Assembly (NCBI GenBank): GCA_963514005.1
Contig: OY740807.1
Coordinates: 30,380,001-30,444,000 of the forward strand
Length of the DNA: 64,000 nucleotides
Source of the DNA: Raja brachyura
Lineage: Eukaryota
Direction: 5' to 3'
The translations under genes and the position numbers were made by a program. Shown piece after piece: positions 1,015-48,179 of this stretch. A model generated the notes under the pieces. That model had not been told where the DNA came from. It searched no databases and was given only the letters and a program-made list of their open reading frames with translations. Position 1 is the stretch's first letter. Every line of letters starts with the position of its first letter.

Positions 1015-2075
1015 CAGGGACATAAACACCCTTGTGAGCCATGGTTTACATGCACCATCACCAACCTCGTCTACTGCATCCGATGTTCTCAATGTGGCCT
1101 CCGTTACATTGGTGAGACCAAGCATAGACTAGTTGACCACTTCGCCGACACTTGCGCTCTGACCGTCAGGGCCTGCTGGACCTCCCGGTTACAAGTCACT
1201 TCAATTCCCCTTCCCATTCCCATTCTGACCTGCCAGTCCTCAGCCTCCTCCAATGCCAGACTGAAGCTGCACGCAGACTGGACCAAAAGCAGTTCATTTT
1301 CCACTCGCCCCTCACGTCTCCTTCTGGTTCACTAATACAGTTTACTTTCCACCCCGCTGCCCCACGTCACCCTGTTCCTTTCCTCTCCTCCTTCTGCTCA
1401 ACTCCCATCCCCACTTCTCCAGGTCCCTCCATTACCCTCCCCCCATTTCCATCTATTCACCATCCCTCCCATAGGTTCAACATCTCATTCCTCATCTTCC
1501 TTTTTGATCAGATCGCACCATATGCAGTCTTCTCCTCTCATCACCTCAAGCACCTGCGTCATCTACCAGTCCGTTTGCCCTTACCTGGATCCACCTGCCG
1601 TTTGCAAACTCTTATCCCCCACCCCTTCCCCTCAGGGCGGTCACGGTGGTGCAGCGGTAGAGGTGCTGCCTTACAGCGAATGTAGCACCGGAGAGCCAGG
1701 TTCGATCCCGACTACGGGTGCTGTCTGTACGGAGTTTGTACGTTCTCCCCGTGACCTGCGTGGGTTTTCTCCGAGATCGTCGGTTTTCCTCCACACTCCA
1801 AAGACGTACAGGTTTGTAAGTTAATTGGCTTTAAAAATTGTCCCTAGTGGATGTAGGATATTGTTAATGTGCGGGGATCGCTGGTCAGCGTGAACCTGGT
1901 GGGCCGAAGTGCCTGTTTCCACGTTGTATCTCTAAACTAAACTCACCTACTTCTACCAGTTACCTCCAATCATGAAAAAGGGGCCTGACCATTTGCCTCC
2001 ACAGACGCTGCCTGAGTTTCTCCAGCAGTTAGTTATTTCCTCAAGATTCTTGCATCAAAACTGCGTTGGGTGTCT
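1015..2075 (+). mobile_element. Penelope-like element 3' fragment (GIY-YIG endonuclease remnant plus 3' terminus), interrupted by a V-SINE
   Basis: Translation FTCTITNLVYCIRCSQCGLRYIGETKHRLVDHF..LPVTSHFNSPSHS matches the PLE GIY-YIG region; pyrimidine-rich UTR; decayed terminal module at about 1970-2075. Confidence 0.85.
1635..1942 (+). mobile_element. Full-length V-SINE (HE1-like)
   Basis: tRNA-like A/B boxes, V-domain GGAGTTTGTACGTTCTCCCCGTGACCTGCGTGGGTTTTCTCC, CR1-type tail GGGCCGAAG..CCTGTTTCC, (CTAAA)n end. Confidence 0.9.
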
Positions 2076-3112
2076 AATTTTAACCCGGGGTTGGTTGAAA
2101 TTCCTGAGCTTCAGGAAACCCCATGGCTAGAGTGGAACAAGGATAGCTGGACCAATTTTCTTTGCCCATTACCTACTTTAACCTCCTCTTCTTTCTGAGC
2201 TCCTTCCCAACTCGTCCAGTTTCTCCGCTTGCTGAGTTCCTGTGCAGGGCATCCGACCTCCCTCTGGCTCTTAGCCCCTCCTCATCATCCAGCTTCCAGT
2301 CTGCCAGCTTGCCTCTAATCTTTCCTCTTCTGAGACCCCAGTCATCTCTTCAGCATCATTCCGACCTTTCCAAACTGTGATCTGACACTAATGGCCTCCC
2401 TCCCTCTCAATTGGTTTGGCTGCATGCAGGAAAAAGATGAACAAATCAAATTGGATTGTGGTTTTGATTTCGAAGATAGGCACAAAATGCTGGAGCAACT
2501 CAGTTGGACAGGCAGCATCTCCGGTGAGAAGGAATGGGCGACGTTTCGAGTCGAGACCCTTCTACAGACCCTTTTGATTTCAGCAGGACCTGTGGGAGAT
2601 GCATTGCGATTCAGAGCAGCTCCATATATCTGAGTTAATATACAGCTCACTGTCTTCTCAGTTCCTCTATTGCTGCCCTATTTTTAAGAAATGGTTTTCA
2701 ATCATCTTTTGCTGCAGGTGTGAATTCTTCATGGAGGCAGCGCGATGCTGCCAGTAATCCTTTTAATACTTCACTCACTAGAAATTCAGACAGTCAGTGT
2801 CAAGGGAACGTTCTGCAAACAAAATCCTGGCATGATTTAGATCTAGTCCAGATGCTCTCAGGGCAGTTGTGATGTCCAGTGGATGAATCCATGTTTTAAA
2901 AACCTTTTGCAAACTTGTGTTATGTCTGACTTGGAACAGGTTTCCACATCACTGGTGGCCAGTGAGTGCAATTTTCACTGGCAGACATAATTCAGTTTAG
3001 TTGAATTTGGAGATACAGCATGGAAACAGGCCTTCCAGCCCACCGAGTCCATCACCCGTCCATCACCCATTCACACTCGTTCTATGTTATGCAATTTGCA
3101 GAGGTGGCAAAT

Positions 3113-3412
3113 GGGCAACACGGTGGCGTAGCGGCAGAGTTGCTGCCTTTCAGCGCCAGAGACCCGGGTTCGATCCTGACCACGGGTGCTGTCTGCATGG
3201 AGTGTGTACGTTCTCCCCATGAGCGCATGTGTTTTCTCTGGGTGCTCCGCTTTCCTCCCACACTCCAAAGATGCACAGGTTTGTTGGTTAATTGGCTTTG
3301 ATAGGAATTCTAAATTGTCCTTGCGTGTAGGATAGTGCTGGTGATCGCTGGCCATCATGGAGTTGGTGGTCTGAAGGGCTTGTTTTCACACTGTATCTGC
3401 CGACTAATCTAA
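3113..3412 (+). mobile_element. V-SINE
   Basis: A/B boxes, V-domain and tail. Confidence 0.85.
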
Positions 3413-3432
3413 AGGCCAGTTAACCTACAAAC

Positions 3433-3574
3433 CCGAAGATCGGGTCTGACGAAGGGTCTCGACCCGAAACGTCACCCATTCCTCCTCTCCAGAGATTCTG
3501 CATGTCCCGCGGAGTTACTTCAGCTTTTTGTTCTATCTTTGGTTTAAAACAGCATCTGCAGCTCCTTCCTACAC
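3433..3574 (+). mobile_element. Short PLE terminal-module insertion with 11-bp TSD
   Basis: AACCTACAAAC at 3422-3432 and 3575-3585 flanks the module. Confidence 0.85.
3442..3477 (+). ncRNA. Minimal type I hammerhead ribozyme motif (PLE-associated), best-preserved copy
   Basis: GGGT|CTGACGA|A|GGGT-CTCG-ACCC|GAAAC|GTC|ACCC: stem I GGGU/ACCC, core CUGANGA, stem II, GAAA, palindromic ACGU stem III, GUC cleavage triplet. Confidence 0.75.
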
Positions 3575-3911
3575 AACCTACAAACTAGCACATCTTTGGG
3601 GTGTGGGAGGAAACCGGAGCACCCGGAGAAACCTCATGCGGTCACAGGGAGAATGTGCAAATTCCGAGACAGCACCCGAGGTCAGGTTTGATCCTGACAC
3701 TGGAGTCTCTGATGCTGTGAGACAGAAACTCTACCAAAAGTGCCACAAAGGTTTCAACAAAGTAACTTTAGAAAGTTACTGCAAGGTAACTTTAGATATT
3801 ATGATCATGTTCCCAGTGATGTGCCATTTGAAGTGATTATTCAAGTGGTCGATACCACAACCACCAAGGTGAACTCACTTAGTAACTTTGCATTTATGTG
3901 GAACCTTTATT

Positions 3912-4218
3912 TTTAGTTTAGTTTAGTTTAGAGATACAGCGTGGAACCAGGTCCTTCGGTCTACCGGGTCCGCGCCGACCAGCGATCCCCGCACATTAGC
4001 ACTATCCTACACCCACTAGGGACAATTTTTACATTTACCAAGCCAATTACCCTACAAACCTGTATGTCTTTGGAATGTGGGAGGAAACCGAAGATCGAGG
4101 AGAAAACCCACACATTCATCATGGAGAGAACGTTTAAACTTTGTACAGACATCACTCGCCAGGATCGAACCCGGGTCTCTGGCGCTGCATTCGCTGTAAG
4201 GCAGCAACTCTACCGCTG
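3912..4218 (-). mobile_element. V-SINE
   Basis: (TTTAG)n tail, V-domain and head on the minus strand. Confidence 0.9.
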
Positions 4219-4429
4219 AACAGTGTCTCACAGTGTAAGGATACCAACTTGACACAATGTCAAAACATTGGAAGAGGGACAATAAGCTTTGCTCAAAAGG
4301 GAGAGAGCAATGAAGAGGCAGAAGGATGTACAATGAAAATTCTGGAATGGGACATGGTCATTGAAAGCACATTTATACAGTCTATAATCCAATACATGTA
4401 CCTGCCCTAATGTTTTTTAATTGTTATAA

Positions 4430-5390
4430 TAAGACCTCTGGCAACTCGTTCTATACACCGACCACCCTCTGAGTGAAATGTTTGCCCCTCAGGTTCCTAT
4501 TAAATCTTTCCCTTCTCACCCATGTCCTCTGTTTCGTGATTCCCCCTACGTTTGGTAAAAGACTCTGCATTCGCCCTATCTATTCCCCTCGTGTTGCCAG
4601 TGATACATCACAGGAAGGGAAGGTCAAGAAGGAAATTAATTTGTTGGAATGGAATTAGAGGATAAATTGCGGTGGATAAATTATGGGGAAAAAGAGATTA
4701 AAGAGATGGGAAAATTATGACCATGGAAGGATTTACGGAAAAGGGGTGAACATTTTTAACTTGAGACAAAAGTGCACACATAACTGGGTAGACAAAAATG
4801 TTGGAGAAACTCAGCGGGTGAGGCAGCATCTCTGGAGAGAAGGAATAGGTGAAGTTTCGGGTTGAGACCCTTCTTCCTTGCAAATCCATGTGCATATCTA
4901 AAGGCCTCTTAACTGCTACTATCGTATCTGTTTCCTGTTTGATGGCTCATTCCAGTCATCCACCTCTCTGTGTGAAACAAAAATTTGTCTCCCCAGTGGC
5001 GTAGCGGTAGAGTTATTGCCTTACAGCGCCAGAGACCCATGTTCGATCCCGACTACAGGTGCTTGTCTGTATGGAGTTTGTACGTTCTCCCCGTGACCTG
5101 CGTGCATTTTCTCCGAGATCTTTGGTTTCCTCCCACACTCCAAGGACATACAGGTTTGTAGGTCAATTGGCTTGGTATAAAAATGTAAAAATGCCCCTAG
5201 TGTGTGTAGGGTAGTGTTAATGTGCGGTGATCGATGGCCGGTGCGGACTCGGTGGGCCAAAGGGCCGGTTTCAATGCTGTATCTCTAAACTAAACATCTC
5301 CTTTAAACTTTGCCCCTCTCACCTTAAAGCTCTGGCTTCTTGTCATTGATATTCCTATCCTGGGAAACATATTCTGACTGCCTACTCTCA
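4430..5390 (-). mobile_element. Mosaic of CR1 3' fragments and a minus-strand PLE terminus (about 4788-4878), with a plus-strand V-SINE nested at 4996-5295
   Basis: CR1 motifs such as CCCCTCAGGTTCCTATTAAATC; GACAAAAATGTTGGAGAAACTCAGCGGG PLE tail. Confidence 0.6.
4996..5295 (+). mobile_element. V-SINE
   Basis: A/B boxes, V-domain and tail. Confidence 0.9.
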
Positions 5391-6037
5391 TGTTGTCACC
5401 TAGACGTACTTACAATCCACATCCACCAAATTTCACTTGTCCAATCTAAAGACCGATGCAATTACCTCAAGATTATTGTATTCCTTTGCTATAAGATCAT
5501 TTTAAAATCTCTTGATTAGTTCTTCTCCACGTGTGAGATAGAAATGAAGGGCAGGCAACATCAGTCTGGAGAGCAATGGAGCAGTCCGGTTGATAACTGA
5601 GCTCGTGTAAGCATTTCATTATCTACTGGACTATGTGTGTTATTATTCCAGTGCTGACATTAATGCCGTTAGCAAAAAAAAAACGGAGAACTGAATGGTA
5701 GCTATAACATCAATTATTTGCAAAAAGAAGATTGAACCCCAGGCATTTTGCACAAATTGCAACCAAAATACTCCATACTAATTATTTCCTGCATATCATT
5801 TATCTTGTAATCAGTTTCATACCATTTTTAAGATTACAGGCTGGGAATAAAAATAAACAAATTATTTATTTGTCTAATTCATTCAAATGCGATAAAGCAG
5901 ACACATTTCTTACTCTTAAAGTTATCTATTTTCATACTTTGAAGTTATTTGTATCCCTGAATAATAATTTGTGGGGGAGATTGAGAACAGGGAGACAGTT
6001 TTAAAATAAGGCGCATAGCTTAAGTCCGAGATAGTTA

Positions 6038-6194
6038 ACGGCCTGTCCCATTTTGTGATTTTTTTGGTGACTGCGAGCGTCAGTGACTGCGTGTCACTAC
6101 ATGCGTCACCACGCATCACGCCGCGTCACGACCCTGACGCAACAACCTCTTTTCAGACTGTCGCCGAAAATGTCGCCCAAGCGGGACAGGCCCT
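6038..6194. mobile_element. PIF/Harbinger-like MITE
   Basis: TIRs ACGGCCTGTCCCA / CGGGACAGGCCCT; TTA at 6035-6037 and 6195-6197 (3-bp TSD). Confidence 0.75.
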
Positions 6195-6337
6195 TTATTA
6201 TCTCAGGTAGTTGTGAAGCTTTGGAATTCTTTGCTCCCAAGAATCATGGATCAGATAATTCCAGTGTATTCAGTAAGTGCATTCAAGGTTAAGAAACACT
6301 CTCGGACTTTGGGATAAATAAGAGGTACAGGGGTCTG

Positions 6338-6580
6338 TATGGTGATGGGTCTCTGGAACTCTCTGCCACAGAGGGTAGTTGAGGCCAGTTCATTGGCTAT
6401 ATTTAAGAGGGAGTTAGATGTGGCCCTTGTGGCTAAAGGGGATCAGAGGGTATGGAGAGAAGGCAGGTACGGGATACTGAGTTGGATGATCAGCCATGAT
6501 CATATTGAATGGCGGAGCAGGGTCGAAGGGCCGAATGGCCTACTCCTGCACCTAATTTCCATGTTTCTATGTTTCTATGT
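6338..6580 (+). mobile_element. CR1 LINE 3' end (young subfamily)
   Basis: LWNSLPQRVVEASSLAIFKRELD ORF2 C-terminus; GGCCGAATGGCC stem-loop; (ATGTTTCT)n tail. Confidence 0.9.
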
Positions 6581-6724
6581 GATTAGATCAGCCCTGATTT
6601 TATTGAATTTAGAACTGTGATCAGGAGAGAAATCTTCCCAAGAAGGTGATTATCCATCATAAAAGGAGGCCATTATGAAAAATGATCAGAAGATGTAGAT
6701 GCATTCTTAATATGAAAGGGACTT

Positions 6725-7110
6725 TGAGTTTAGAAGGATGATGAGGGATCTCATTGAAACCTATCGAATAATGAATGACCTAGATAGAAATGTTTCCAGT
6801 AATTGGAGAGTCTAGAACCAGAGGGCACCACCTCACAATAAAAGGATGTACCTTTAGAATGGAGATGAGGAGGAATTTCTTTAGCCAGAGAGTGATGAAT
6901 CTATGGTATTTATTGACTCAGCCTGCTGTGGAGGCCAACACATTGGGTATTTTTAAAGCGGAGATTGTAAGGTTCTTGATTAGTAAGGGCATCAAAGGTT
7001 ACAGGGAGGAGGCAGGAGAATGGGGTTTGGAGGGAAAAACAGTTCAGCCATGATCGAATGGCTGAGTAGACTTGAATGGTTGAATGGCCTAATTCTGCTG
7101 CTCTGGTCTA
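6725..7110 (+). mobile_element. CR1 LINE 3' fragment
   Basis: SRTRGHHL..RRNFFSQRVMNLW..IFKAEI motif. Confidence 0.9.
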
Positions 7111-7289
7111 ATAGGATTTGAGAGAAAAGGTAGGAACATGCCACTGCAAGGGATGACCTTAATGTCTAGCCAAATAGCCTGTTCCTGACCCTTTGCTTCT
7201 GCTCAGGAACAAAGAAGTTATTTCATTCCATTAACCTGTGGATCGCTAAGGTCTCGTTTAATATTTGCTACTCGTTAATTAAACTGATA

Positions 7290-7495
7290 TTTTTTTTCTG
7301 TTCATTCATGGGCTGTGGTTGACACTGACGATGCAAGAAAGGTTCATACATCCCCAATTGCTCCTGAATCGAGGAGGCAGTTAAGAGTCAACCACATTGG
7401 AGAGCCTGGTGTCACATATTAGTCAGACTGACAAAGAATGGTAAATGTCCTTCCCTTTACTTCAGTGAACCGGGTGGGTTTTGTAATGATAATTT
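7290..7495 (-). mobile_element. Ancient SINE remnant (MetaSINE/MER131-like; family uncertain)
   Basis: GGCAGTTAAGAGTCAACCACATTG...TCCTTCCCT...GTGAACC.GGTGGGTTTT resembles a widespread chondrichthyan SINE; a more decayed copy lies at about 37720-37990. Confidence 0.5.
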
Positions 7496-7502
7496 AGTAA
7501 GT

Positions 7503-7617
7503 TAGAAACATAGAAACATAGAAAATAGGTGCAGGAGTAGGCCATTCGGCCCTTCGAGCCTGCACCGCCATTCAATGTGATCATGGCTGATCATCCAACT
7601 CAGTATCCCGTACCTGT
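7503..7617 (-). mobile_element. CR1 3' tail
   Basis: (AGAAACAT)n tail and GGCCATTCGGCC. Confidence 0.85.
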
Positions 7618-7682
7618 CATGGTACGGGATACTGTTCATGGCTAAGTGTTGGAAAGTTAATTAATTAAAACAATTATTTTAG

Positions 7683-9080
7683 TGTCATATAGTCTTACAG
7701 GGTGGAAACAGGCCCTTTGTCCGAACTTGCCCATGCCGACCCACTTGTCCCATCTGCACTAGTTCTACCTGCCTGCATTTGCCCCCTATCCCTCTAAACA
7801 TGTTCTATCCATGTACCTGTCTAAATGTTTCTTAAATGTTGCGATAGTACCTGCCTCAACCACCTCCTCCGGCAGCTCGTTCCACACACCTACCATCTTT
7901 TGTATGACAATGTTTAGCAATGTTACAAAATTTTAAAAATTTTAAAAATCAAGTCTGCAATTTATCCCACCAGATAAAGCATAAAAAGAAGTTTAATTTG
8001 ACACATAATTCACTTTCATATCTTCAGTATTAAGAAAGTTATGGCCATTTTCATACTCGGAAATTAGCATCTTGCTCCCCATTGCCTTTCAATTGACTTA
8101 ACTCAAAAGCTGTGATCTAGAACTGTTAAAAGCCCATAACTTTCTTAAAAATTAAGAGAACGCAATGAAATTTTCAGTTATTATAGATTGAAGTATTCTG
8201 AAACAAATATGAAACAATCTTACTTGGATGACCTGAAATTAAAGCATATAATTAGTTAGTTATCTAATTGTAGCTAATTACAAAATTCAATGAGTAGATC
8301 TAAACATCTATCCATTTCTTAAGAAAAGATAAACTTTTTTTTAATTGCCTAAGTGTCCAAATAACATTCACACAATAATCCACAATATAACATAATTTTT
8401 AAATCTCATTTTCATGAATTTCTGGGCCAAATGGAAGGAATTTAGTGTTTGATTCCTGTAAATTAATGGCCATTTAAATCATCTAGCGAGTGGGTTTTAG
8501 TGGAATGCGGTGGATTGGAACGTTGCGGTTAGCGGTGAAGTCGGGAGGAAAAATACTGTTTGTTCATACATTTTTTTGGACCCAATTTCGCAACATGAAA
8601 ATGTTATTAAAGCCTCCGGAAAAAACAACTTTTAATATAAAAATAAACTATTTACCTTTTTTTCTCCCCTACGCAAAATCCTTCCCATTGTCGGCGCTCA
8701 CGGCTTTTGAAGGTGATTTTTAAATTACCCTAGTTAATAAATAATTTAGCGTAATTTAAAAATACCTTCATTCATGAAATGTCGGAGCAATTTTTCTTCC
8801 GCAACTAAATCGCCCGACATTGATCGATTTTCCCTGCCTGTGGAAAAACAGCACTTTAAGCCCGCCCCCCTCGGAAAGGCGCCAAAGTCGCGCACACGGG
8901 GAGCGGCAGAACTGCAGCGCTGCTCAAGGTAAGTTTTGTAACATACCTACAATGTTAGTCCTCAGGTTCCAATTAAATCTTTCCTTCCTTACCTTAAACC
9001 TATGTCCTCTAGTTCACGATTTCCCCCACTCTGGGCAAGAGACTCTGCGTGTCTACACGATTTATTCCTCTCATTATTTT
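7683..9080 (-). mobile_element. CR1 3' fragment split by a 1035-bp DNA transposon
   Basis: CR1 sequence is colinear across the insertion at 7915-8949. Confidence 0.8.
7915..8949. mobile_element. Non-autonomous TIR DNA transposon (hAT-like, TAG...CTA ends)
   Basis: TIRs TAGCAATGTTACAAAATTT / AAGTTTTGTAACATACCTA; CAATGTT duplicated at 7908-7914 and 8950-8956; a second copy begins with the same left end at 56888. Confidence 0.8.
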
Positions 9081-10344
9081 GTTACTTGAATTTTAATTCT
9101 CGTCTACTTTGTTGGGATTTGAACACGTCTTTGGATGGCACTTTGGTATATGAGGTGGAATAAGCCATATGATTGGCAATGAAGTGGTTAAATGACTAGA
9201 CATGTAGCTAAAGTTCAGGACCATTGATTCAGAGATGTGAATCTCTGCATGACTGGGATGTTTAAATGCTGAAAGAACTTCAGATTCATCAGTTATGCTT
9301 CAGAAAAGCAAATCTACCATCTTTACTAGTCTGCTGACTCCAGTTACCCATTGTGGTCAGAGACACTTTAGCTTAGTTCGGAGATACACAGGCCCTTTGG
9401 CCCACCGAGTCCGTGCCGACCAGCGATCCTCATACACTAGCACTATCCTATACATTAGGGACAATTTACAATTTTACCGAAGCCAATTAACCAAGAACCC
9501 GTTCATCTTTGGAGTCTTTCTGGTTGCCTTTTACCTGCCTTTGTTGTACAGAGGTTATGAGGAATGGATAAAATGCATTGCCAATGTTTCCCCCACCTGT
9601 TGAATGGCTTACAATTGGAGGTCATTTCACTGTCCACACAACATCTAATGCCACAATACCATGAACTTACTGCAGCAGCTCTAACTCCAGGTTCATATTC
9701 TTCACTGTTAATCACCTGCTTAAACCCCTCTCGATTACCCTCTCCAAATCCTCTAAGCTGAGATGGCGGAAAAAAATAGTTCATGCAAAGATCAGTTGAA
9801 CATGGAATGATTTGTCAATAGCGATTGAATCAGTAGCATTACTTCTTAAGGAACGGTGGTTGAGTAATTTGGAGTACTCTTCAGATCCAGCGTTACAGCT
9901 GCATTAATTGTGGACAATTTTGTGAGATTCTGGCATAAAACAGAGTGACTCAAATGCCTTCATTCTGTGCTGTAAATTCCTGTCATTCCATGAGTGAATG
10001 GTAACTGGGAATTAGAAAATGTAATGGAGGTGAGTCTGAATGGGGAGTAAAGATCAAAAGCGGGAAATGGGTTCAACCGGAAGAGCAATAACACCAGGAA
10101 ACGGTTCCTTTATCTCTACATGAGGCAATGAGCTCAGTGCTAACAAAAAGTCTTGTCAACATTTTTGCTCAGCAATTTGTTCAAAAATATTTTAATTACC
10201 AGTAACAAAGAGGCCAAATGGCATTCTTCTTGCGATAAAGGGCTGGACCTTATCATTGCTATTCAGACGATAAAACTGCTTCAGTGTTTCCGTCACGGTT
10301 ATTGCATGCCACTTATGCAGCTACTACCATTTGGGTGTGAATAC

Positions 10345-10470
10345 AGGAAAGAAAAGTTCTGGATTAGCTCAGCAGGTCAGGCAGCATCTCTGCAAGAAAA
10401 TGGATAGGTGACGTTTCAGGTCACGACTCTTCAGACTCTTTTTTGTATAAACCAGCATCTGCCGTTCCTT
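10345..10470. mobile_element. PLE terminal module, inverted arrangement, with decayed hammerhead on the minus strand (about 10407-10437)
   Basis: GGTGACGTTTCAGGTCACGACTCTTCAGACT followed by a plus-strand AAACCAGCATCTGC tail. Confidence 0.7.
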
Positions 10471-10616
10471 TTTATTAAAGAAAATTGATGTGTTGTTTGT
10501 GGCCCCTAGTGTGTGTAGGGTAGTGTTAATGTGCGGGGATTGCTGGTTGGTGCGGACTTGGTGGGCTGAAGGGCCTGTTTCCGCGCTGTATCTCTAGTTA
10601 AACTAAACAGTCGCTT

Positions 10617-10812
10617 AAGCCTTTGGCTCCGTCAACTGACAGGGGCTGTTGCTACGCGAACCTGACTGCCCATGTCAACTCATTTCCATTTTGTGCTTGT
10701 CCCATGAGCTCATGCAAGCCATGACGATATCCTAATGGATTTACAATAGAACTAGTCTCAGTGAAGGCCAATGTTAAACAAGGCTGTGGCGTTGCCCTAA
10801 CACTTTTATTTA
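10617..10812 (+). pseudogene. Ancient RTE-clade LINE reverse transcriptase remnant
   Basis: Frameshifted translation AFGSVN*QGLL...DCPCQLISILCLSHELMQA..NGFTIELVSVKANVKQGCGVALTLLF resembles RTE motifs KAFDSV..GCP..LHD.M..GVKQGC.LAPTLF. Confidence 0.65.
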
Positions 10813-12504
10813 CTGCTGAATACCTGCTTAAACCCCTTATTCTAACTTCTTCCCTCCCCTCTCGTGAAGGTGGCCTCAGCACCATTAATAACGTGGTGAT
10901 TTCAAGTTAAGAACACATTTTCACAAAATACGAATGGGGTCAGTTTAATGGAGAAGCCTCCTTTCTCTGCGTTAGCCGTTGTGCCTTTTCGCTGACATCC
11001 CAGTATCGCCCAAACGGATTTGTTTGAACAGATAATGGAAGCGTTTAGTCCTCTGCTACCTGCAAGGTGAATGCATCACCAGGCAAGTTGGCACGTGAAA
11101 AGTTATACTTGTGCCAGCAGACTGTCCAAATCTGCAGGATGCCATGGTCAAGTTGACTTTGCTCTGACTGTGGTCTTGGCAGTGGCAATTTATATGCGAC
11201 ATCTGATAACAATCAGGTGAACCGTGGCCATTATTTTCCTTTGGCAGATATTTATGGCTTTTATATAATGTAAGCTGTTGAGATAATCTCCACAAAGAAA
11301 GATGCTGAACTGTGGTAACAGTGAACTGAATTGGGTGATGAAATCTTCCTCAGCTCCAAGCTAATTCTTACCCAAGGCTTTCTGTAATTCTGCAATTTCC
11401 TGTTCTTCCCAATGTTCCTTTGATCCTAAAACCTTTCAAAGAAAGAGCTTGCATTTAGATGATGCCTTTGATAACCAAATGATATTCTGAATCGCTTGCA
11501 AAAATCACAATACGTTTTAAAGGCGGCCAGCTTTAATCACTAGCAAGGTTTCCTCATGCGCTGTTTTCTAATCTGTCGTTACTAGCACTGGATAGTCCAC
11601 CATCAGACCATGTTTTCGGACTTTGAGTGTCTCAGTCTGGATGTTAAAGGCAGACAGTTAACCCTGCCATATCTGTGGTGTGTGACCTGCAGGTGGCTGA
11701 ACAAATCCATCCATCTTGAGGTTTTGTCAGCCTGCTAAATGTATGTTCATTTTAAATAACTGCTGGGCCTGACTTGGTCTGAATCCCTCTGCGCTGAACC
11801 AACTGCAGATCAAAAGTGCTCATTCTGAAAACTACTTCCAGTTAAGTAGCTGATCTGACGCAGGCTCTCTTATTGCAGGTTATACCGCAGGATATCTGTC
11901 CCCCACTTCTGCTTCCCCTGTTAACTGATTATGCCATTAAGAAGGAATCAGCCTAGTCCGCTGTCTATTATCAGTGTTTCAAAAATTCCAGCTTTTACTT
12001 TGATAAATAACTCAGTTCAGTTCACCGAGGTACAGAGAAAAGCTTTTTGTCGCGTGCTAACCAGTCAGCAGAAAGACAATACGTGATTACAATCAAACTA
12101 ATCGCACTCCCAGTTTTGGGCAGCCATCCAGTCAAGTTGCAACATGTCGGCATAGGTTGGTGAATCAATACTCACTGCTTCTGTAACTGCATTATTGATG
12201 GAGGCTTGGCAATGATGTTCACTGCCGATACAACATGAAGCAACTCTGAACAAACAATTCGATGGAGTCTGCTCCGCATTATTCACTGAATCTACGACCT
12301 TTGGTGTTGATCGTTCTGCATAAAACAATTTGCTGCAGAAACCACGTTCAATTGAAAGCATCACATTGGTACTCGAGGAACACTGGTGAAATGCCCCCGT
12401 CAATAGATGCACATGTAGAGTTGAAATTGCGTAAAGGAGGGATTTATTGATAAACCAGTGGGTGGGTGGCAGCCGCAGGGAACAATCACCTGATTAGTAA
12501 ATAA

Positions 12505-13010
12505 CTAATCATACATTTAAAAGTCATTTGGTCAAGTACATAGATAGAAAGGTTTAGAAGGATGGGCCAAACACGAGAAGTGGGACTTGTGTAGATAGAG
12601 CATCTTGGCCGGTATGGCAAGGTGGGCCGAAGGGCCTGTTTTCGTGCTCATAAGTTCATAAGTGATAGGAGCAGAAGTAGACCATTCGTCCCATCAAGTC
12701 TACTCCGCCATTCTATCATGGCTGATCTATCTTTCCCTCTCCTGCCTTCTCCCCATAGCCTCTGACACCCGCACCAATCAAGTATCTATCAATATCTGCC
12801 TTAAAAATATCCATTGACTTGGCCACCACAGCCACCTGTTGCAATGAATTCCTCAGATTCACCAGAAATCCCACCTCATCTCCTTCCGAAAGGTACACCC
12901 TTTTTCTTTGAGGCTATGGCCTCTCATCCTAGAGTCTCCCACTTGTGGAAGCATCCTCTCCACACCCACTCTGTCCAGGCCTTTCACTATTCAGAAAATT
13001 TCAATGAGGT
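12505..13010. mobile_element. Tail-to-tail CR1 3' fragments (plus about 12505-12650, minus about 12652-13010)
   Basis: Two CR1 tails converge at about 12650. Confidence 0.8.
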
Positions 13011-13105
13011 CCACTCTGTAATAAACAGCAGAAATCTGTACCATTGTTGTATCTGACTGACCCCTCAAATGCCTGCTGTAACAGTATGCCAACAGTAAAT
13101 CCGAT

Positions 13106-13197
13106 CTGAAGAAGGGTCTCGACCCGAAACGTCGCCTATCTCCTTCGCTCCTTAGATGCTGCTGCACCTGCTGAGTTTCTCCAGCCTTCTGTGTACT
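13106..13197 (+). mobile_element. Short PLE terminal module with intact hammerhead core; 13-bp TSD with one mismatch
   Basis: CAGTAAATCCGAT 13093-13105 / CAGTGAATCCGAT 13198-13210; insert starts at CTGAAGAAGGGTCTCGACCCGAAACGTC. Confidence 0.8.
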
Positions 13198-13509
13198 CAG
13201 TGAATCCGATACAGTTGTTTCAAGCAATGTTGAAAAGGACTGCTTCCTTCTGTAGGGTCTGCTTTTCTGTGCATAGTTCACAATACCCTCCCTTAGTGTA
13301 AACACAGCCTGCTTTAGCGTAGAGATTGTATTGAGGGTCTTGTGTTCAGACCCAAGATGTTACAGATCATGTCTCCAGAATACCAACGTGTATTTATTTA
13401 GTACCTCTAACCTACTAAATTGTCTTAAAGTTCCTCATCATAGAAATTGTCTCCAAGTCGCATAAGGTAATATTTTGATAGCTGATCAAGTACTTGGTTA
13501 GAAGTTTGG

Positions 13510-13765
13510 TTTTAGTTTAGTTTATTGTCACGTGTATCGAGGTACAGTGATAAGTTTCTGTTTTGAGCTAACTGGTCAGCAGAAAGACAATACATGATTA
13601 CAATCGAGCCATCCATAGTGTACAGATACATGATAAAGGGAATAACATGGATAACATTTAGTGCAAGATAAAGTCCAGTGAAGTCTGATCAAAGATAATC
13701 CCAGGGTCTCCAATGAGGTAGATAGTAGCTCAGGGCTGCTGGTGACTTGGAAGGATGGTTCAGTT
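13510..13765 (-). mobile_element. Rex1/Babar-type LINE 3' UTR fragment (other copies at about 12014-12095, 16475-16700, 17436-17515, 33530-33800, and 54074-54130 on plus)
   Basis: Same sequence lies directly downstream of a Rex1-type coding remnant at 36880-37450. Confidence 0.7.
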
Positions 13766-13879
13766 AGAAGAGATAGATTTTAAAAGATCATATTAAATGA
13801 GGAAAAAGAGCTTTAGAAAGGTTGGAAAGAAACCTGATCAAGAGCTCTAGCATCTTACCAGCTATAGACCTCACAGATG

Positions 13880-14230
13880 TATATACATGAGAGGTATAGA
13901 TCGGGTAGACAATCTGAACCTTTTTCCCAGGGTGGAAACGTCAAAGACCGTAAGGCTGAGTATTAAGATGAGAAGGGCAAAATTAAAAGGAGATGTGTAG
14001 GGCAATCTGTTTTACATAGAAGGTGGTGGGATTCTGGGATGTGCTGCCAGGGGTGGCGGTGGAGGCAGATATGATAGTGGCGTTTAAGAGGCTTTTAGGT
14101 AGGCAAATGGACAGGGAATGGAGAGATATGGAGTCATGTGCAGGCCGATTAGATTATTTCATCTTGGCATCAAGTTGGCATTGATATAGTGGGCCGAAGG
14201 GCCTGCTCTTGCACAGTACTGTTCGGTGCT
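13880..14230 (+). mobile_element. CR1 3' fragment
   Basis: GGTGGAGGCAGAT..GCGTTTAAGAGGCTTTTAG..GGGCCGAAGGGCCTG. Confidence 0.8.
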
Positions 14231-14813
14231 CTAAGTTGCCGATGATGGAGTGATTAAAATTGGAGATATACAAGAGGCCAGAACTGTGAGGAGCGGCGAT
14301 CTCAGGGAGCTGTGGGACTTGCAGAGTTCATTTGGGATAAAAATAAAATCTTATCATTTTAGATTGTATCCAATGACTATTAAAAATGACCCCAGGGATT
14401 TTTTTCAGATTCAATATAACACAACATGAGTTACACTGTACAGCTGTTACACAGAAGTCAGCCCAACTCAGCAGAGCTCCATTCTTTAGGAATAGCGCTT
14501 TTAAAATGTGGTTAAGATTTTATCAATAAAATATTACTTTTGCATTCAAATGTGTGAATGTAGTGATCTTGAGAGGACAGACATGCAGAGGGATAGTCAG
14601 AAAATCTATAGGAATTGTATCCTAGATGCATGATTAATAATGAACAGGGATTTAGATTTGGAAAATTGTTTAGTTAGTTAATCCGAAGAATAAATCCATC
14701 GTTCTCATTCTTGAACTTTTAACCACAGATTGGAATTAATTTTACTTGAGTTTTATGGGACAGCTGAATAACCTCATTATGTTGTTGGTAGTCTCCCAGC
14801 TAATTGGTATTAA

Positions 14814-15120
14814 TTTAGTTTAGTTTAGAGTTACAGTGTGGGAAAAAAAGCTGTTCAGCCCACTGAGTCCTCACCGATCAGCGATCACCCGTGCACTAGT
14901 TCTATATCCTGCACACTAATGACAATTTACCAAAGCAAATGAACCTATAAACCTGTGCATCTTTGGAATGAGGAAGGAAACTGGATCACTCGGGAAAAAC
15001 CCACGCGGGCACAGGGAGAACGTACAAACGCCACAGAGACAGCAGCTGTAGTCAGGATTGAACCCGGGTGAGGATTGAACCCTAGGCACTGTGAGATAAC
15101 AGCTCTACCACTGCGCCACA
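14814..15120 (-). mobile_element. V-SINE
   Basis: Tail, V-domain and head. Confidence 0.85.
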
Positions 15121-15319
15121 GAGTCACCCAAAACTACCAACTATTACTGGGTCTCCCATCAGCAAAGCAAATCCAGCCACTAGCAACACTATTACCACAG
15201 TGGTTCTTATTTGGTCAACTTCCCAAGCTTCTGTTCGTAAACATGCTTAGACCTATTGCAATGGATAGATTATTTCCTATTGCTACAGTACCGGCCTCAA
15301 ATGACATATTCATAGTAAG

Positions 15320-15530
15320 GTCATAAGGTCCAAAGTGATAGGAGTAGCATTAGGCCATTCGGCCCATCAATTCTACACGGCCATTCAATTATGACTGATC
15401 TATCTCTCCCTCGTAACCCCATTCGCCTGCCTTCTCCCCATAACCCCTCACACCCATACTAATGAAGAATCTGTCTACCTCTGCCTTAAAAATATCCATT
15501 GACTTGGCTTCCACAGCCTTCTGTGGCAAG
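15320..15530 (-). mobile_element. CR1 3' end
   Basis: GGCCATTCGGCCC..CCTGCCTTCTCCCCATAACCC. Confidence 0.8.
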
Positions 15531-16902
15531 CGAGCTGCCACATAAAAAACAATCAGGATTCATGCCTTCTATATTTTCCAGAGTCATTGTTACTGAAATA
15601 ATTTTGGAATGTAATTGGTTCTGAACTCAGCCCTCTTAATCATTTACACGAGACCATAATCTCAGCTCTATTAAATCAATTCTCTTCTCCAAGTGCTGGA
15701 GTAACTCAGGGGGCCAGGCAGCATCTCTGGAGGACATGGCTAGGTGATGACAAGTGATTGGCCTGTTTCCGTGCTGTAAGTCTAAACTAAACTAAACTAA
15801 AATGTTTTTTCCCCCCCCCTCTGTTTAAACACACTATAGATCAAAGCAATTAATTATGGTAGTCATAAAACTAAATTGTCATTTTTTTTGCTGAGGACAC
15901 TTTGAGCATTTTCTCAATATTTCAGTTTATATACTCTGGGTAAGAGGTGAATTATGGACTATTCTTTTGCATCTTCTGATTCAAATGGTATCCATACTAA
16001 TCATAGCTATTTCAATTTTCAATTTCGCTTTGCAGTGCAAAATTGTTGAAAATTATGTTTTCCAGAACTCTTAGAAATTTGACAAAATTTCACTGGATGT
16101 ATGTTAAAATAAATTGATTTATTAAGATCATAACAGAACCAATTTATTTATAATGTTATTCTTTTGACATGAGAATGCAATATACTGGAACAATCAAGTT
16201 TTGATGCTTTATAAATTGATTTCATTTAGTGTTTACCTAACAACAAGTAGGTTCTGTGCCCTTATGGGGCGCATCAGAATCTTAACGGGCACACAAAAGC
16301 AAAAAACCAAAGTAGGTTAACTAGTGTGCATCAGTGTACTCTCAACATTCTGCATGGCGTTGTTGGCAGTGATATTAAGCAGTACTTACCCATCAATAAC
16401 CTGCTAATAGATGCCTAAGTCTAATGCTTCTTGGCCCCGACCTTAGCAAAGCCTTCAACCAAATGTGGACCAGTTCAGTTTAGTTTAGTTTATTGTCGCG
16501 CGTACTGAGGTACAGTGAAAAGCTTTTGTCGAGGGCTAACCAGCCAAAAGAAAGACGAAACATGATTAGACACAGGATAAGGGAATAACGTTTAGTGCAA
16601 GGTAAAGCCAGCAAAACCGATCAAGGATAGTCCAAGGGACAGCAATGAGGTAGATTGTACTTCAGTACTGCTCTCTGGTTGTGGTAGGATGATTCAGTTT
16701 CTGTGTAGTCAAAAGTTGGTCACACAGATACACTGGAGAGGGTGCAGAGGAGATTCACTGGGATGGTGTCTTGGATTCTTAGTGGTTCAATTATGAGGAG
16801 AGGCAGGATAAGCTAGGTCTGCTCCCCCTTAAGCAGAGGAGGTTAAGAGGAGACATGATGGAGGTATATAGAATTATAAGGTGTATAAAGTATGAAGGAC
16901 AC

Positions 16903-17140
16903 GTGTTGGAGGGAACTGCAGATGCAGGTTTACACCGAGATAGATACAAAATGCTGGAGTAACTCAGCGGGAGAGGCAGCATCTCTGGAGAGAAGGAATC
17001 GGTGATGTTTTGGGTCTAGACCCTTCTTCTCACTGGCGCTGAACTCTCAGTCTGAAAAAGGGTCTCAGCCTGAAACGTCACCCATTCCTTCTATCCAGAA
17101 ATGCTGCCTGTCCAGCTGAGTTACTCCAGCATTTTGTGCC
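16903..17140. mobile_element. Inverted pair of PLE terminal modules
   Basis: Minus copy about 16903-17030 and plus copy about 17045-17140, each with a mutated hammerhead motif. Confidence 0.8.
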
Positions 17141-17518
17141 TACAAGGGACACTTTGTTGAATCTGTTGTAATCTCGAATGCTCTCATTGAGTAAGAACTA
17201 GAAGTAGTTTCAATACAGCTTTCAGAAGAGTAATGGTTTTCTGGGAACAAATTGGAGAGCTGAGAGCAGAAGTAGGGGAGGGTTGGTGATAGATTAGAGG
17301 CATAGGAGCGTACAACATAGAAATAGACCAGTCGGCAAACGTCCATATTTATCCCATTGTCCAGCACTTCGTCCATAGCCTTCAGTGCCTAAACACTTCA
17401 AGTACTTGTCTAAACAATTCTAAATGTGGACCAGTTCAGTTTAGTTTAGTTTATTGTCACGCATACTGAGGTACAGTGAAAAGCTTTTGTCGAGTGCTAA
17501 CCAGACAGAAGAAAGTGA

Positions 17519-18003
17519 AGGGCCTGTTCCACTTGGATGACCTAATCCATGAGTTTCGAAGACCCTAGACGAGTTGAAAAATATGTCAAGGTCGCGTTGA
17601 CTCGCCAAAGTAAAAGATCTCCAACGACCTCCTACGACTATGTCTACGACCTCCTACGACCCCCTCGACCCCAGTCTTCCACACCTAAGACCAACTACGA
17701 CTAGCTACGAGTGGAAAATACTCACATGATAAAATTATGTCATGTTTGCATTTTTTTTCTCGGGCCAGTTATCGACCTATGGCTACCTACGACTACTACC
17801 GTGGACATTTTTTATCTGGACTGGAAAAAACGCCGCGACCTACTTGAGGCCACGAGTACACGGAGAACACTCACGAGCATGAGGAAGAATTACAAAGACC
17901 TCCAACGACCTCCTATGACCTCTTGGCGACCATGCTGCGAGTATGAGTCAAGGGCAAACTCGGCAGAGGTCGCCAATTAGGTCGTGAAAGTGGGACAGGG
18001 GCT
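17519..18003. mobile_element. PIF/Harbinger-like MITE with internal (CTACGAC)-type repeats
   Basis: TIRs AGGGCCTGTTCCACTT / AAGTGGGACAGGGGCT; TGA at 17516-17518 and 18004-18006. Confidence 0.75.
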
Positions 18004-18192
18004 TGACTTAGCTTCAACCACTCTCTCGGGCAGTACATTACAAGTACTAACCACTCTTTGGCTGAAGAAGGTCCCCCTCATTTCCCTTCTGAATGTATAT
18101 CCCCCTTAGGCTAAATCTGTGTTCTCTGGTTTTATTTACCTTTTATATTAGGAAAGGTTTCAATCAAAGCTTTTCATTAAAAGCTCAGTCAA

Positions 18193-18505
18193 ATAGAAAC
18201 ATAGAAACATAGAAAGTAGGTGCAGGAGTAGGCCTTTCGGCCCCACGAGCCTGCAGCACCATTCAATATGATCATGACTGATCATCCAAAATCAGTACCC
18301 GCTTCCTACTTTTTCCCCCATATCACTTAATTCCGTTAGCCCAAAGAGCTATATTTAACTCTCTCTTGAAACACCGAGTGAATCGGCCTCCATTGCCTTC
18401 TGTGGCAGAGAATTCCACAGATTCACAACTCTCTGGGTGAAGATGTTTTTCTTCATCTCATCTTCATCTTCATCTTCTAAACGGCCTACTCCTTATTCTT
18501 AAACA
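18193..18505 (-). mobile_element. CR1 3' end
   Basis: (AGAAACAT)n tail; GAATTCCACAGATTCACAACTCTCTGGGTGAAG. Confidence 0.85.
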
Positions 18506-18999
18506 GTGAAATATCAAGCCTGGCATGTTTTGTCATGGAAAACATTTTAGTAGTACAAGATTTTCCAAAGCCCTCTCCAGCGTGTCTGAATTTCTTTGTC
18601 TCTGTGGTCTCTGAAGGGAGAGGTGCAGCTACAAGATACGTACATTTTAGTGGTAGCAAAATACTTGGGTTAATTCGTCTCTCTGTCAAACGGAGCATTG
18701 TCTGATTACCATGAGCAACATTGCCAGTTATATGGACTACATGCTGGCTGCTTTCTGCAGTAGTCAGATGATGAATGGGAACATAAATAATGTGACGGAT
18801 CTGCTATTAATAAAATAAAATTAAATGTATTAGTTATGCTATGGTCTGCTTTACAAAGAATATCAGCAACATGTCTGCATGAAAATAATAACAGGACTGT
18901 GGTCGTCGCAAGCCAGCAGATTGTTTTTTTTTAAGGAATAACTTTGGACAGTACAATCTCGATACAATCTAATATCTGTGTGATACAATACAGAAACAC

Positions 19000-19352
19000 G
19001 CCCGCTTCCATTTATACAATAACTGCATTGAAACAGATTATCCCAAGGAACTTCACAGGACATTTACCAAGCAAAATTTAATGGGAAAATATGTTAGAAT
19101 AGATGATTAAATCTTTGTCAAAGAGTAGAGATTTGGTGCAATTTAAAGGTGATGACGAGTTAGCCAGGGTGGCAGGGAAGGATTTCTAGAGCTTAGAGTT
19201 CTGGCAGACAAGTACTCTGCTACCAATGTAATTTAATTTGGGAATGATCAGGATACCAGAATTAGTGGCGTGTGGGTATCTTGGATTGCCGAGCTGGAGT
19301 AGATTACAGAGAGATGGGGAAGGAAGGGCATGGAGGGATTCTGGAAACAGGA
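19000..19352 (-). mobile_element. L2 LINE 3' fragment (old)
   Basis: Minus translation LCNLLQ..NSGILIIP..IGSRV resembles the L2 ORF2 C-terminus; related pieces at about 14235-14335 and 47100-47190. Confidence 0.6.
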
Positions 19353-19357
19353 AACAA

Positions 19358-19900
19358 GAGTTTGTACGTTCTCCTCGTGACCTGCGTGGGTTGTCTCCGG
19401 GCGCTCCGGTTTCCTTCCACACTCCAAAAACGTACAGGTTTGTAGGTTAATTGGCTTCAGTAAAATAGTAAATTGTCCCTAGTGTGTGTAGAATAGTGCT
19501 AGCTTAGAGATACAGCGTGGAAACAGGCCCTTCGGCCCATCGGGTCTGTGCCGACCAGCGATCCCCACATATTAACACTATTCTAGGGACAATTTTTACA
19601 TTTACCAGGCCAATTAACCTACAAACCTGTATGTCTTTGGAGTGTGGGAGGAAACCAAAGATCTTGGAGAAAACCCACGCAGGTCACGGGGAGAATGTAC
19701 AAACTCTGCACGGACAGCACCTGTAGTCGGGATCGAACCCGGGTCTCCAGCACTGCATTCGTTGTCAGGCAGCAACTCTACCGCTGCACCACCGTGATGC
19801 CGCACAGTGTTCAGGGATCGCTGGTCAGTGCAGACACGTTGTGTCGAAGGGACTGTTTCCGTGCTATATCTCTCAACTAAACTAAACTAAACTAAACTAA
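19358..19900 (+). mobile_element. 5'-truncated V-SINE with an opposite-strand V-SINE (19502-19797) nested inside
   Basis: Plus V-domain 19358-19500 resumes at about 19806 and ends in (CTAAA)n; a full minus copy lies between. Confidence 0.85.
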
Positions 19901-20367
19901 AGTAAACTAAAAGGATAACAACATCTAGCACTATAACAATCAGGGCAGAACTGCAAGGGCCAAGCAGACTTACTCACCGAGTCGGTGAGGCTGGTTGGCC
20001 CCATTCTACCCACACCGGCTCGGTCTCCTATCACGGCTGTTCCTGTGATCTTCTCCCACACACTGTTTTTTTGTTCATTTCCCACGTAAGAATAGTTGGG
20101 AGTTTACGAACAGTTCTCAAGAGAACCATGTCATCACCTGAGGACTGCATTTATTGGTCTTGAAAGGAGTGCAGCAGCACTTGAATATTACCAGGTCCTA
20201 AATGTTGGATTATGAACAAAAATAACATGAAGCCAATTGTATTCCCTTGAATGTAAAAGAACAAGGCCAGTTTGATTGATTTTAGTATTTTGAAAGGTGT
20301 TATTTGAATAAACAGTAGAGCTATTTACCCCGGAATAAGGACATTTGTCTCACACTGTTGTAACCAT

Positions 20368-20695
20368 GGGGCGGCAGAGTGGTGCAGCGGGTAGAGCTGC
20401 TGCCTCACAACGTCCGAGAGGCCGATTTAATTCTGACCTTGGGTGCTGTCTATGTGGAGTTTACACGTTCTCCCTGTGATTGCGTGGGTTTCTATCGGCT
20501 GTTCCGGTTTCATCCCCCATCCTAAAGACAGGCGGACGTCTTGTAGGCTAATTCGCCCCCGTAAATTGTCCCCAGAATGAAAAAGTGGGATAGCGTACAA
20601 TTAGTGTGAACGGGCGATGGATGGTCAGCGTAAACTCGGTGGCCGACGGGCCTGTTTCCATAGTATTTTTCTAAAACAAAAACTAAAACTAAATA
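20368..20695 (+). mobile_element. V-SINE (diverged subfamily)
   Basis: Head, V-domain and tail. Confidence 0.8.
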
Positions 20696-22845: not shown

Positions 22846-22851
22846 AGGACA

Positions 22852-28219: not shown

Positions 28220-28315
28220 TTACTCAAACTGTGCTCCTTCCTTCATTTCACATCTGTGGCGATTCTGCGGTCGTTGTAACTGGAATATTGTTGTAGTCTC
28301 CGTATTTGAGGAAGG

Positions 28316-48168: not shown

Positions 48169-48179
48169 ATTGTCTGAAA

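What the first reader, a model, noticed from the sequence alone, without database searches (positions are those of the whole stretch)
3442..3477. Dispersed minimal hammerhead ribozyme motifs, about 25 copies in 64 kb
Seen: the motif CTGA(A/C)GA-A-GGGT-CTCG-ACCC-GAAAC-GTC recurs on both strands. The core is intact at 3446, 13106 and 28089. Mutated or partial copies occur near 2540, 4850, 10407, 17005, 17052, 20947, 23534, 24703, 25040, 29080, 33295, 35944, 36538, 40570, 42436, 44473, 46231, 46460, 54230, 56174, 57866, 58131 and 60760. The 3442 copy also has a 4-bp stem I (GGGU/ACCC), with predicted cleavage after C3473. Established: Penelope-like elements carry minimal type I hammerheads whose loop-less palindromic stem III (here ACGU) is thought to need dimerisation. 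Inference: any long transcript through this locus carries many hammerhead half-sites, which could cleave in pairs within one pre-mRNA.
Basis: partly seen in the sequence, partly recalled or inferred. Interest (0 to 1): 0.7.

Follow-up and report, generated by a model that had tools for sequence, protein, structure and literature searches.

The report
Penelope retrotransposon ends with minimal hammerheads
This very common short repeat is the end piece of a Penelope-like jumping gene and carries the outline of a known miniature self-cutting RNA; its copies decay like junk DNA and are unlikely to cut host RNAs, and many were likely made by copying only the first 95-130 letters of the element's uncut RNA.

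Summary
The motif is real: all 26 listed places are copies of one 95-135 bp repeat, about one per 2.2 kb across the genome. It is the pseudo-LTR end of a Neptune-type Penelope-like retrotransposon: 69 of 96 endonuclease ends are followed by it, and in full-length copies it runs into the ORF start. Minimal hammerheads in this setting, including mass solo copies, were described in 2014.

The pre-mRNA cleavage idea is not supported. Cores decay like neighbouring sequence. Stem I is 2 bp in the element. The 4-bp stem I at 3442 comes from the insertion junction and is outcompeted by an upstream hairpin. No host exon was found.

One lead remains. In a young subfamily, 61 of 147 copies start 0-4 nt before the core and 1 at the cleavage site; an extra G precedes 18 of 25 copies starting at -2/-3, against 7 of 30 controls. 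This suggests run-off copies of a capped, uncut RNA 5' end. This scan noted the same family and reading many times on other DNA.

The parts
3422..3432 (+). left target-site duplication (11 bp) of the 3442 insertion
   Evidence: identical to 3575-3585
3433..3443 (+). 5' junction letters not part of the element; the last two G supply the outer half of the 4-bp stem I
   Evidence: lie between the TSD and the element's usual start; the element itself has YCAGT here, 58 of 69 endonuclease-linked copies
3431..3445 (+). competing hairpin (3431-3436 with 3440-3445) that sequesters the 5' strand of stem I
   Evidence: pair probabilities 0.54-0.86 against 0.05-0.16 for stem I
3444..3574 (+). solo pLTR-end copy (about 131 bp): hammerhead, leader and 35-nt tail, inserted into a reverse-oriented SINE
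   Evidence: starts at -2, the commonest start in young copies
3446..3473 (+). minimal type I hammerhead core: CUGACGA, extra A, stem II 3454-3465, GAAA, palindrome ACGU 3469-3472, C17 3473
3575..3585 (+). right target-site duplication
13094..13220 (+). solo copy of the young subfamily; core intact at 13106, stem I 1 pair
28077..28212 (+). solo copy; core intact at 28089, no stem I
54170..55463 (-). 5'-truncated PLE: RT thumb, Cys linker, GIY-YIG endonuclease, stop, about 105-nt 3' UTR, hammerhead at 54258, tail; interrupted by an insert near 54830-55060
   Evidence: weak Pfam GIY-YIG hit, E 0.003
44169..44602 (+). PLE 3' end: endonuclease C-terminus, UTR, hammerhead at 44473 (stem II 3 of 4 pairs)
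42366..42825 (-). PLE 3' end: endonuclease C-terminus, UTR, hammerhead at 42466 (G12 lost)
16911..17170 (.). head-to-head pair of copies
35870..36034 (.). head-to-head pair of copies
46364..46600 (.). head-to-head pair of copies
56066..56289 (.). head-to-head pair of copies
24325..24461 (.). weak, decayed head-to-head pair
1973..60800. remaining decayed copies of the family (36 nhmmer hits in all, listed)

Best explanation
The repeats are the hammerhead-bearing pseudo-LTR end of a very abundant Neptune-type Penelope-like retrotransposon (PLE), and many short copies are likely run-off cDNAs of the first 95-135 nt of its capped, uncut RNA, which then decay without detectable selection. Shown: the repeat follows the endonuclease stop and precedes the ORF start in partial tandems. 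Short copies end at two sites about 93 and 128 nt downstream of C3, some are flanked by 7-16 bp TSDs, many begin 0-4 nt upstream of C3, often after an extra G, and almost none begin or end at the cleavage site. Inferred: (1) the element's RNA starts at the Inr-like YCAGT just before the core, so stem I can be only 2-3 bp; (2) the element protein nicks the target and starts reverse transcription internally at the two tail sites, as shown in vitro for the anole PLE; (3) near the RNA 5' end the RT runs off and copies the cap as an extra G, sometimes folding back to give head-to-head pairs; (4) starting in the downstream pLTR of a tandem transcript gives the longer 5'-truncated copies. The ribozyme, if active, would work in the element's own RNP (protein-assisted or as a pLTR dimer), not in the scattered copies. 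Confidence by step: PLE origin about 0.97; no host function of the copies about 0.9; run-off from a capped start about 0.6.
For: 69 of 96 endonuclease C-termini have the core 70-287 nt downstream. In 9 of 30 ORF-5' loci the repeat runs straight into the ORF start, and 4 of these carry the endonuclease end upstream. A 415-aa stop-free stretch has YIDD, a C-X4-C-X2-C linker and GIY-YIG. 368 copies in 824 kb, 0 in shuffles; 13,067 and 29,208 exact genome matches, controls 0. Young subfamily, n=147: 61 start at 0 to +4 upstream of C3 against 27 over the next 24 positions (10.8-fold rate); 38 extend over 40 nt; 1 starts at the cleavage site and 4 within 3 nt of it. Extra G before 18 of 25 non-inverted copies starting at -2/-3 against 7 of 30 truncated inside (Fisher p=4e-4). 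3' ends form two clusters 36 nt apart, matching loose ends at L113 1219 and 1254 in four public runs. 137 of 368 copies are in head-to-head pairs. Core intact in 56 of 190 copies against 53+-10 for matched sets.
Against: No raw reads, CAGE or RACE show the RNA start; only contigs were available. The extra G could reflect microhomology with the target or untemplated C addition rather than a cap. TSDs were found in only 21 of 82 non-inverted short young copies, and some are adjacent direct repeats that may be chance. Starts are spread over about -3 to +7, not one base. Non-CpG core positions are slightly better kept than downstream ones (0.931 vs 0.913, p=0.015), though base-matched ranges overlap and the non-essential N7 and extra A are kept as well. 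In D. virilis Penelope the start lies 46 nt upstream of an intron that ends at helix I (PMC2377424, PMC4209133), a different layout. Neptune is assigned from motifs, with no tree.
Confidence: 0.7

Rival explanations
1. Same PLE origin, but the pile-up of 5' ends is ordinary 5' truncation at a stall site: RT stops at the hammerhead fold or a bound protein in a longer RNA, and the junction G comes from microhomology or untemplated addition.
For: RT passes this point in 38 of 147 young copies. Many junctions show fold-back on the stem II arm with 2-3 nt microhomology. Heavy 5' truncation and inverted ends are general in PLEs (PMC8557442, passages).
Against: RT moving 5'-ward meets stem II first, yet ends cluster just beyond the 5' edge of the core rather than at stem II. 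The G excess is specific to starts at -2/-3 (18 of 25) and absent at internal truncations (7 of 30).
Confidence: 0.2
2. YCAG|T is a 3' splice site: an intron from the ORF stop to the base before the core, as in D. virilis Penelope, and splicing defines or remodels helix I.
For: Pyrimidine tract plus CAG in all subfamilies; a GT at the stop codon in the short-UTR subfamily; 1 genomic copy has the exact joined form.
Against: 4,356 unjoined copies against that 1, which a TCAG microhomology deletion also explains. The donor position is not kept in the youngest subfamily. The joined form keeps the same CAGU, so stem I does not improve. No clean splice joint in RNA-labelled contigs. Splicing would not give free 5' ends.
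Confidence: 0.15
3. One reading: dispersed copies act as half-sites that pair and cleave long host transcripts.
For: About 1.4e5 intact cores by extrapolation from 44 in 824 kb; 9 of 44 have a stem I of 4-5 bp; same-strand neighbours within 400 nt occur 54 times among 368 copies. A few close pairs elsewhere might cleave.
Against: No strand bias, no excess conservation, G12 among the most decayed positions. Intact plus-strand cores here are 9.7-24.6 kb apart and mostly lack stem I. Dimer folds are disfavoured. The commonest close pairs are head-to-head, so on opposite strands. 1 of 9 Xenopus dimers cleaved in vitro (bioRxiv 2026.07.22.740005).
Confidence: 0.05
4. The short repeat is an independent non-autonomous element (SINE-like or retrozyme) with its own masters.
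For: 125 of 156 core-complete copies lack the upstream UTR; some have their own TSDs.
Against: Short and long copies of a subfamily share diagnostic bases and both 3' ends. No tandem arrays of the unit like those of retrozymes were seen among the copies listed.
Confidence: 0.05

Closest known systems
Minimal hammerheads (min-HHR) in pLTRs of metazoan Penelope-like elements (Cervera and De la Pena 2014, PMC4209133; main text parts 1-2 of 4 read, supplements not seen)
   Same: Type I core, extra base between A9 and 10.1, G10.1-C11.1, palindromic 15.2-16.2, no loop III, location in pLTRs, most copies solo and attributed to truncated PLEs, close pairs on opposite strands.
   Different: Stem II is 4 bp and stem I 2 bp in the element (they give 7-8 and 4-5 bp for Schistosoma, a 2-bp helix I for D. 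virilis). Copy number is about 1e6, with about 1.4e5 intact by extrapolation, against 4,000-9,000 motifs in coelacanth and Xenopus. No cartilaginous fish appears in the parts read.
Neptune clade of EN+ PLEs (Craig et al. 2021, PMC8557442; passages)
   Same: C-terminal GIY-YIG, CX2-5CxxC linker, partial tandems, inverted 5' copy, optional 30-40 bp tail, heavy 5' truncation.
   Different: No microsatellite targeting was evident in the flanks read; clade placement was not tested by a tree.
PAc, Poseidon PLE of Anolis (Frangieh et al. 2024, PMC11167929; parts 1-2 of 4)
   Same: Two 3' ends defining the tail; uncut RNA as template; no ends at the hammerhead cut site.
   Different: In PAc the ORF starts within the hammerhead and RT starts 111-118 nt into the ORF. 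Here the first ATG is about 163 nt after C3 and both 3' ends lie upstream of it. In the parts read, the paper does not describe run-off copies of the RNA 5' end.
Non-LTR retrozymes (Li et al., bioRxiv 10.64898/2026.07.22.740005; parts 1-3 of 5; supplements closed)
   Same: PLE-pLTR-derived, hammerhead-bearing short units; monomers spread evenly; one chondrichthyan genome was sampled.
   Different: Defined by tandem units each with a hammerhead; the copies here are solo or head-to-head. Their supplements may already list this family.

Membership tests
PLE min-HHR | Core CUGANGA ... GAAA ... UH | tested here: met
   invariant in five subfamily majority sequences
PLE min-HHR | Extra base before stem II and G10.1-C11.1 | tested here: met
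   offset 1 in 42 of 44 intact copies; G-C commonest
PLE min-HHR | Palindromic, loop-less helix III | tested here: met
   ACGU; CG in 117 of 219 copies, the rest mostly CpG decay
PLE min-HHR | Helix I of 4-5 bp | tested here: not met
   2 bp in 22 of 44 intact copies, 4-5 bp in 9 of 44 and there junction-derived; a 2-bp helix I is reported for the D. virilis variant
PLE min-HHR | Covariation in stem II | tested here: inconclusive
   stem II identical in subfamily majorities while loop II varies; no excess of double changes among copies; 99 genome-wide double-change copies without single-change counts
PLE min-HHR | Located in the pLTR of a PLE | tested here: met
PLE min-HHR | Self-cleavage as a dimer or with protein | not testable with these tools
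   no genomic end peak at the site
EN+ PLE, Neptune | RT followed by C-terminal GIY-YIG endonuclease in one frame | tested here: met
   415-aa stop-free stretch; Pfam RVT_1 and GIY-YIG hits just below gathering scores; Atlas clusters with HTH_animal, RVT_1 and GIY-YIG at 0.96
EN+ PLE, Neptune | CX2-5CxxC linker between RT and EN | tested here: met
   CNRKRCYTC in P0001
EN+ PLE, Neptune | Partial tandem pLTR, inverted 5' copy, 30-40 bp tail | tested here: met
EN+ PLE, Neptune | RT phylogeny groups with Neptune references | not tested
   no reference set was available from the tools
EN+ PLE | Retained intron in the pLTR | tested here: inconclusive
Non-LTR retrozyme | Tandem units each with a hammerhead | tested here: not met
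   copies are solo, head-to-head or ORF-linked; no genome-wide tandem search was run
Non-LTR retrozyme | Abundant circular RNA | not testable with these tools
   contigs only

The most novel reading that the evidence does not exclude
The hammerhead forms the first ~31 nt of the capped PLE mRNA, and several hundred thousand genomic copies are strong-stop-like cDNAs made by internal priming near that 5' end, with the cap copied as G. The genome would then be a base-resolution record of PLE transcription start and RT initiation, and the ribozyme would be a decapping switch in the element's own RNP, kept off during retrotransposition by a 2-bp stem I.
Probability: 0.45. Interest if true: 0.55.

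Novelty: new member of a known kind. Interest (0 to 1): 0.32.

Why it matters
As a motif it is a further, unusually abundant example of a family described in 2014. The part that could matter is mechanistic. The PLE cycle and the role of its hammerhead are open questions (PMC8557442, PMC11167929). If the solo copies are run-offs of the capped 5' end, they explain the long-noted solo min-HHRs, fix the element's start site and make the ribozyme's role directly testable, with a young family (about 2% divergence) as a substrate. It also warns that counts of genomic hammerheads here count insertion by-products, not functional ribozymes.

Tried and rejected
Rfam at gathering score: 0 matches. PDB sequence search of the ORF fragment: 0.

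Host gene: Pfam on 146 of 327 candidate frames in the window plus 4 chosen frames, and on 147 of 808 flanking frames over 160 kb plus 3 PLE frames, found only retroelement domains and sub-threshold hits. Contigs of four RNA-labelled runs laid on 20001-40000 showed repeats and no exon joint among the joints shown; the one contig on unmasked DNA was a low-copy repeat. This leaves open that the window lies in a large intron. No run on record as RNA was listed as a holder, which is no evidence on expression.

Splicing: the pattern had one letter too many, so its zero is void; it was redone. The joint 1029-1121 first looked like a splice but keeps the donor bases and has unknown letters between, so it was rejected. 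Loose ends at 28089 were not used, because that copy's own upstream differs from the family.

Compensatory change: one search is uninterpretable without single-change counts. An intact full-length ORF of the young subfamily was not obtained; only a stop-free 3' part of 415 aa is in hand. Lunse et al. 2017 was not held and is known only through a review passage.

Full report
Observation. The motif is at 3446-3473 as written, with C17 at 3473. A profile built from the window's copies finds 36 hits, 18 on each strand, and all 26 of the 26 coordinates given fall in them. The unit is a 95-135 bp repeat, not just the 28-nt core. One 30-mer occurs exactly 13,067 times in the 2.7-Gb genome, the reversed control 0 times. 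In 824 kb (the window with 160 kb of flanks, and six arbitrary 100-kb blocks) there are 368 copies, 21-70 per 100 kb, and 0 in shuffles; this extrapolates to about 1.2 million. A strict descriptor finds 44 intact cores in the same DNA and 1 in shuffles. Rfam has no match at gathering score. The host looks like a cartilaginous fish from its SINEs; that is recalled, and no call names it apart from earlier AI notes.

What it belongs to. The window holds fragments of a retroelement ORF, some directly followed by the repeat: 54170-55463 (-), 44169-44602 (+), 42366-42825 (-). In all DNA fetched, 69 of 96 endonuclease C-termini are followed by the core 70-287 nt later. Walking to the ORF's 5' end, 9 of 30 loci have the repeat running straight into the ORF start, and 4 of them carry the endonuclease end upstream: the partial tandem that makes a pseudo-LTR. 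A 415-aa stop-free stretch of a young copy has YIDD, CNRKRCYTC and a GIY-YIG domain. Pfam hits are just under gathering scores, and the Atlas neighbours carry HTH_animal, RVT_1 and GIY-YIG. The Cys linker is the Neptune/Nematis mark (PMC8557442, passages). No tree was built. 137 of 368 copies sit in head-to-head pairs, five such pairs in the window, as described for PLEs (PMC8557442; PMC3846280, passages).

The ribozyme fold. The element has YCAGT before the core (58 of 69 endonuclease-linked copies) and A/G-CC after it, so stem I is 2 bp (22 of 44 intact copies). It is 4-5 bp in 9 of 44, where the extra G come from the insertion junction. The 3442 copy is such a case: an 11-bp TSD (3422-3432, 3575-3585) encloses 11 junction letters and then the element from 3444. 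Those letters form a hairpin that takes the stem I strand (pair probability 0.54-0.86 against 0.05-0.16 for stem I). The other two intact cores have 1 and 0 stem I pairs. Active dimers modelled for seven pairings are 16-25 kcal/mol above the folded monomers; this model ignores tertiary contacts and had no positive control.

Selection. Across five subfamily majorities the core and stem II are unchanged while loop II and downstream bases differ, which fits selection in active masters but shows no compensatory pair. Among copies, 56 of 190 keep all 12 essential bases against 53+-10 for CpG-matched random sets; G12 is 66% intact, like other CpG sites. Against this reading, non-CpG core positions average 0.931 against 0.913 downstream (p=0.015). 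Base-matched ranges overlap, and the non-essential N7 and extra A are as well kept. There is no strand bias in 224 kb (58+/50-, intact 7+/7-). No host exon was found (these covered 146 of 327 and 147 of 808 candidate frames and 20 of 64 kb), so transcription of the window is unknown.

How the copies end. Of 156 core-complete copies in the 824 kb, 31 extend into a shared 3' UTR, 47 have an inverted copy upstream and 78 are solo. Of 368 copies, 237 start at or before the core's 5' edge, 10 within 3 nt of the cleavage site, and 2 end there (profile edges are fuzzy). A young subfamily (2% from its majority; a 50-mer occurs 29,208 times) gives clean junctions. The 147 copies were picked by a downstream anchor, and part of the DNA was chosen because it is rich in them. 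Of these, 61 start 0-4 nt upstream of C3, 12 start 5-40 nt upstream, 38 further, 27 within the first 24 core positions, 4 within 3 nt of the cleavage site (1 exactly) and 5 beyond. Non-inverted copies starting at -2 or -3 have G as the preceding base in 18 of 25 cases, against 7 of 30 for internal truncations (p=4e-4). TSDs of 7-16 bp were found in 21 of 82 non-inverted short copies; in two clear cases one or two G lie between TSD and element. 3' ends cluster about 93 and 128 nt after C3, and contigs of four public runs break at the same two places.

Mechanism. In vitro, the anole PLE protein starts reverse transcription internally at two sites that define the tail, uses uncut RNA, and is needed for ribozyme cleavage (PMC11167929). 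The two 3' ends and the lack of ends at C17 fit that. I infer that the RNA starts at the Inr-like YCAGT, that priming near this end gives run-off cDNAs with the cap copied as G (cap copying is recalled from other retroelements), and that priming in the downstream pLTR gives the long truncated copies. This step is about 0.6 likely; a stall at the fold with microhomology joining is the main rival. A 3' splice site at the same place, as in D. virilis (PMC4209133; PMC2377424, passages), is possible: 1 genomic copy has the joined form against 4,356 unjoined. But the donor is not kept in the youngest subfamily and no clean joint was seen in contigs.

Comparison and novelty. Cervera and De la Pena described this motif class, its solo copies and opposite-strand pairs, with no monomer cleavage and weak dimer cleavage. 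Li et al. derive retrozymes from pLTRs and saw cleavage in 1 of 9 dimers. Six literature searches (listings only, except the papers named) showed no description of this family or of cap-marked run-off copies. The library lacks most subscription papers; Lunse et al. 2017 was not held, and supplements of the 2014 paper and the preprint were not seen and may list the family. The scan's own notes hold 106 findings with these words in at least 15 genomes, and 98 fit in this genome. I had seen the 5' pile-up before reading them; their run-off, cap and TSD wording preceded my junction tests.

Verdict. Real, abundant and of a known kind; the host pre-mRNA reading is unlikely. The end statistics are a testable lead on the PLE cycle. 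Interest 0.32.

Noticed in passing
window 3115-3400 and 24 further hits: Abundant SINE-like repeat (25 BLAST hits in the window; HE1-like, name recalled). The 3442 copy sits inside a reverse-oriented copy. ARAGORN finds no tRNA.
   Followed up: partly
window 21690-22388 (+): 232-aa stop-free frame with a Pfam ALKBH8_N hit (E 3.5e-13); in a repeat, probably the C-terminus of a LINE ORF rather than a host exon.
   Followed up: partly
window 32113-32346 (+): PLE ORF fragment 95% identical in protein to the young subfamily, ending abruptly within the endonuclease.
   Followed up: no
window 36532-36635 (+) and 1973-2039 (+): Strongly diverged copies, possibly an older PLE subfamily with a different downstream leader.
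   Followed up: no
L100:1522-3734 (+): LINE with endonuclease and RT frames of 298 and 471 aa, about 57 kb upstream of the window.
   Followed up: no
L112, L113 (about 1120-1500): In full-length copies the frame is open from the hammerhead through the tail into the ORF, with the first ATG 163 nt after C3; the ORF N-terminal part holds a variable tandem-repeat, Pro-rich insert.
   Followed up: partly
L201 (about 1500-1527, -): The single genomic copy in which the endonuclease end is joined exactly to the hammerhead, removing the stop; spliced retrocopy or microhomology deletion.
   Followed up: partly
L003, and two loci in blocks W224 and C8: Three copies share a non-PLE upstream sequence and stop 12 nt after the cleavage site, so a hammerhead fragment has been captured inside another repeat family (cluster 4).
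   Followed up: no
L044 and L050 (oriented 3710-3920): A solo-length pLTR copy is fused directly to a 5'-truncated ORF, as expected if a short copy is added at the 5' junction of a longer insertion.
   Followed up: partly
window 52200-53150 and 61500-62700: Long C/T-rich low-complexity tracts and dinucleotide repeats that give spurious long frames.
   Followed up: no
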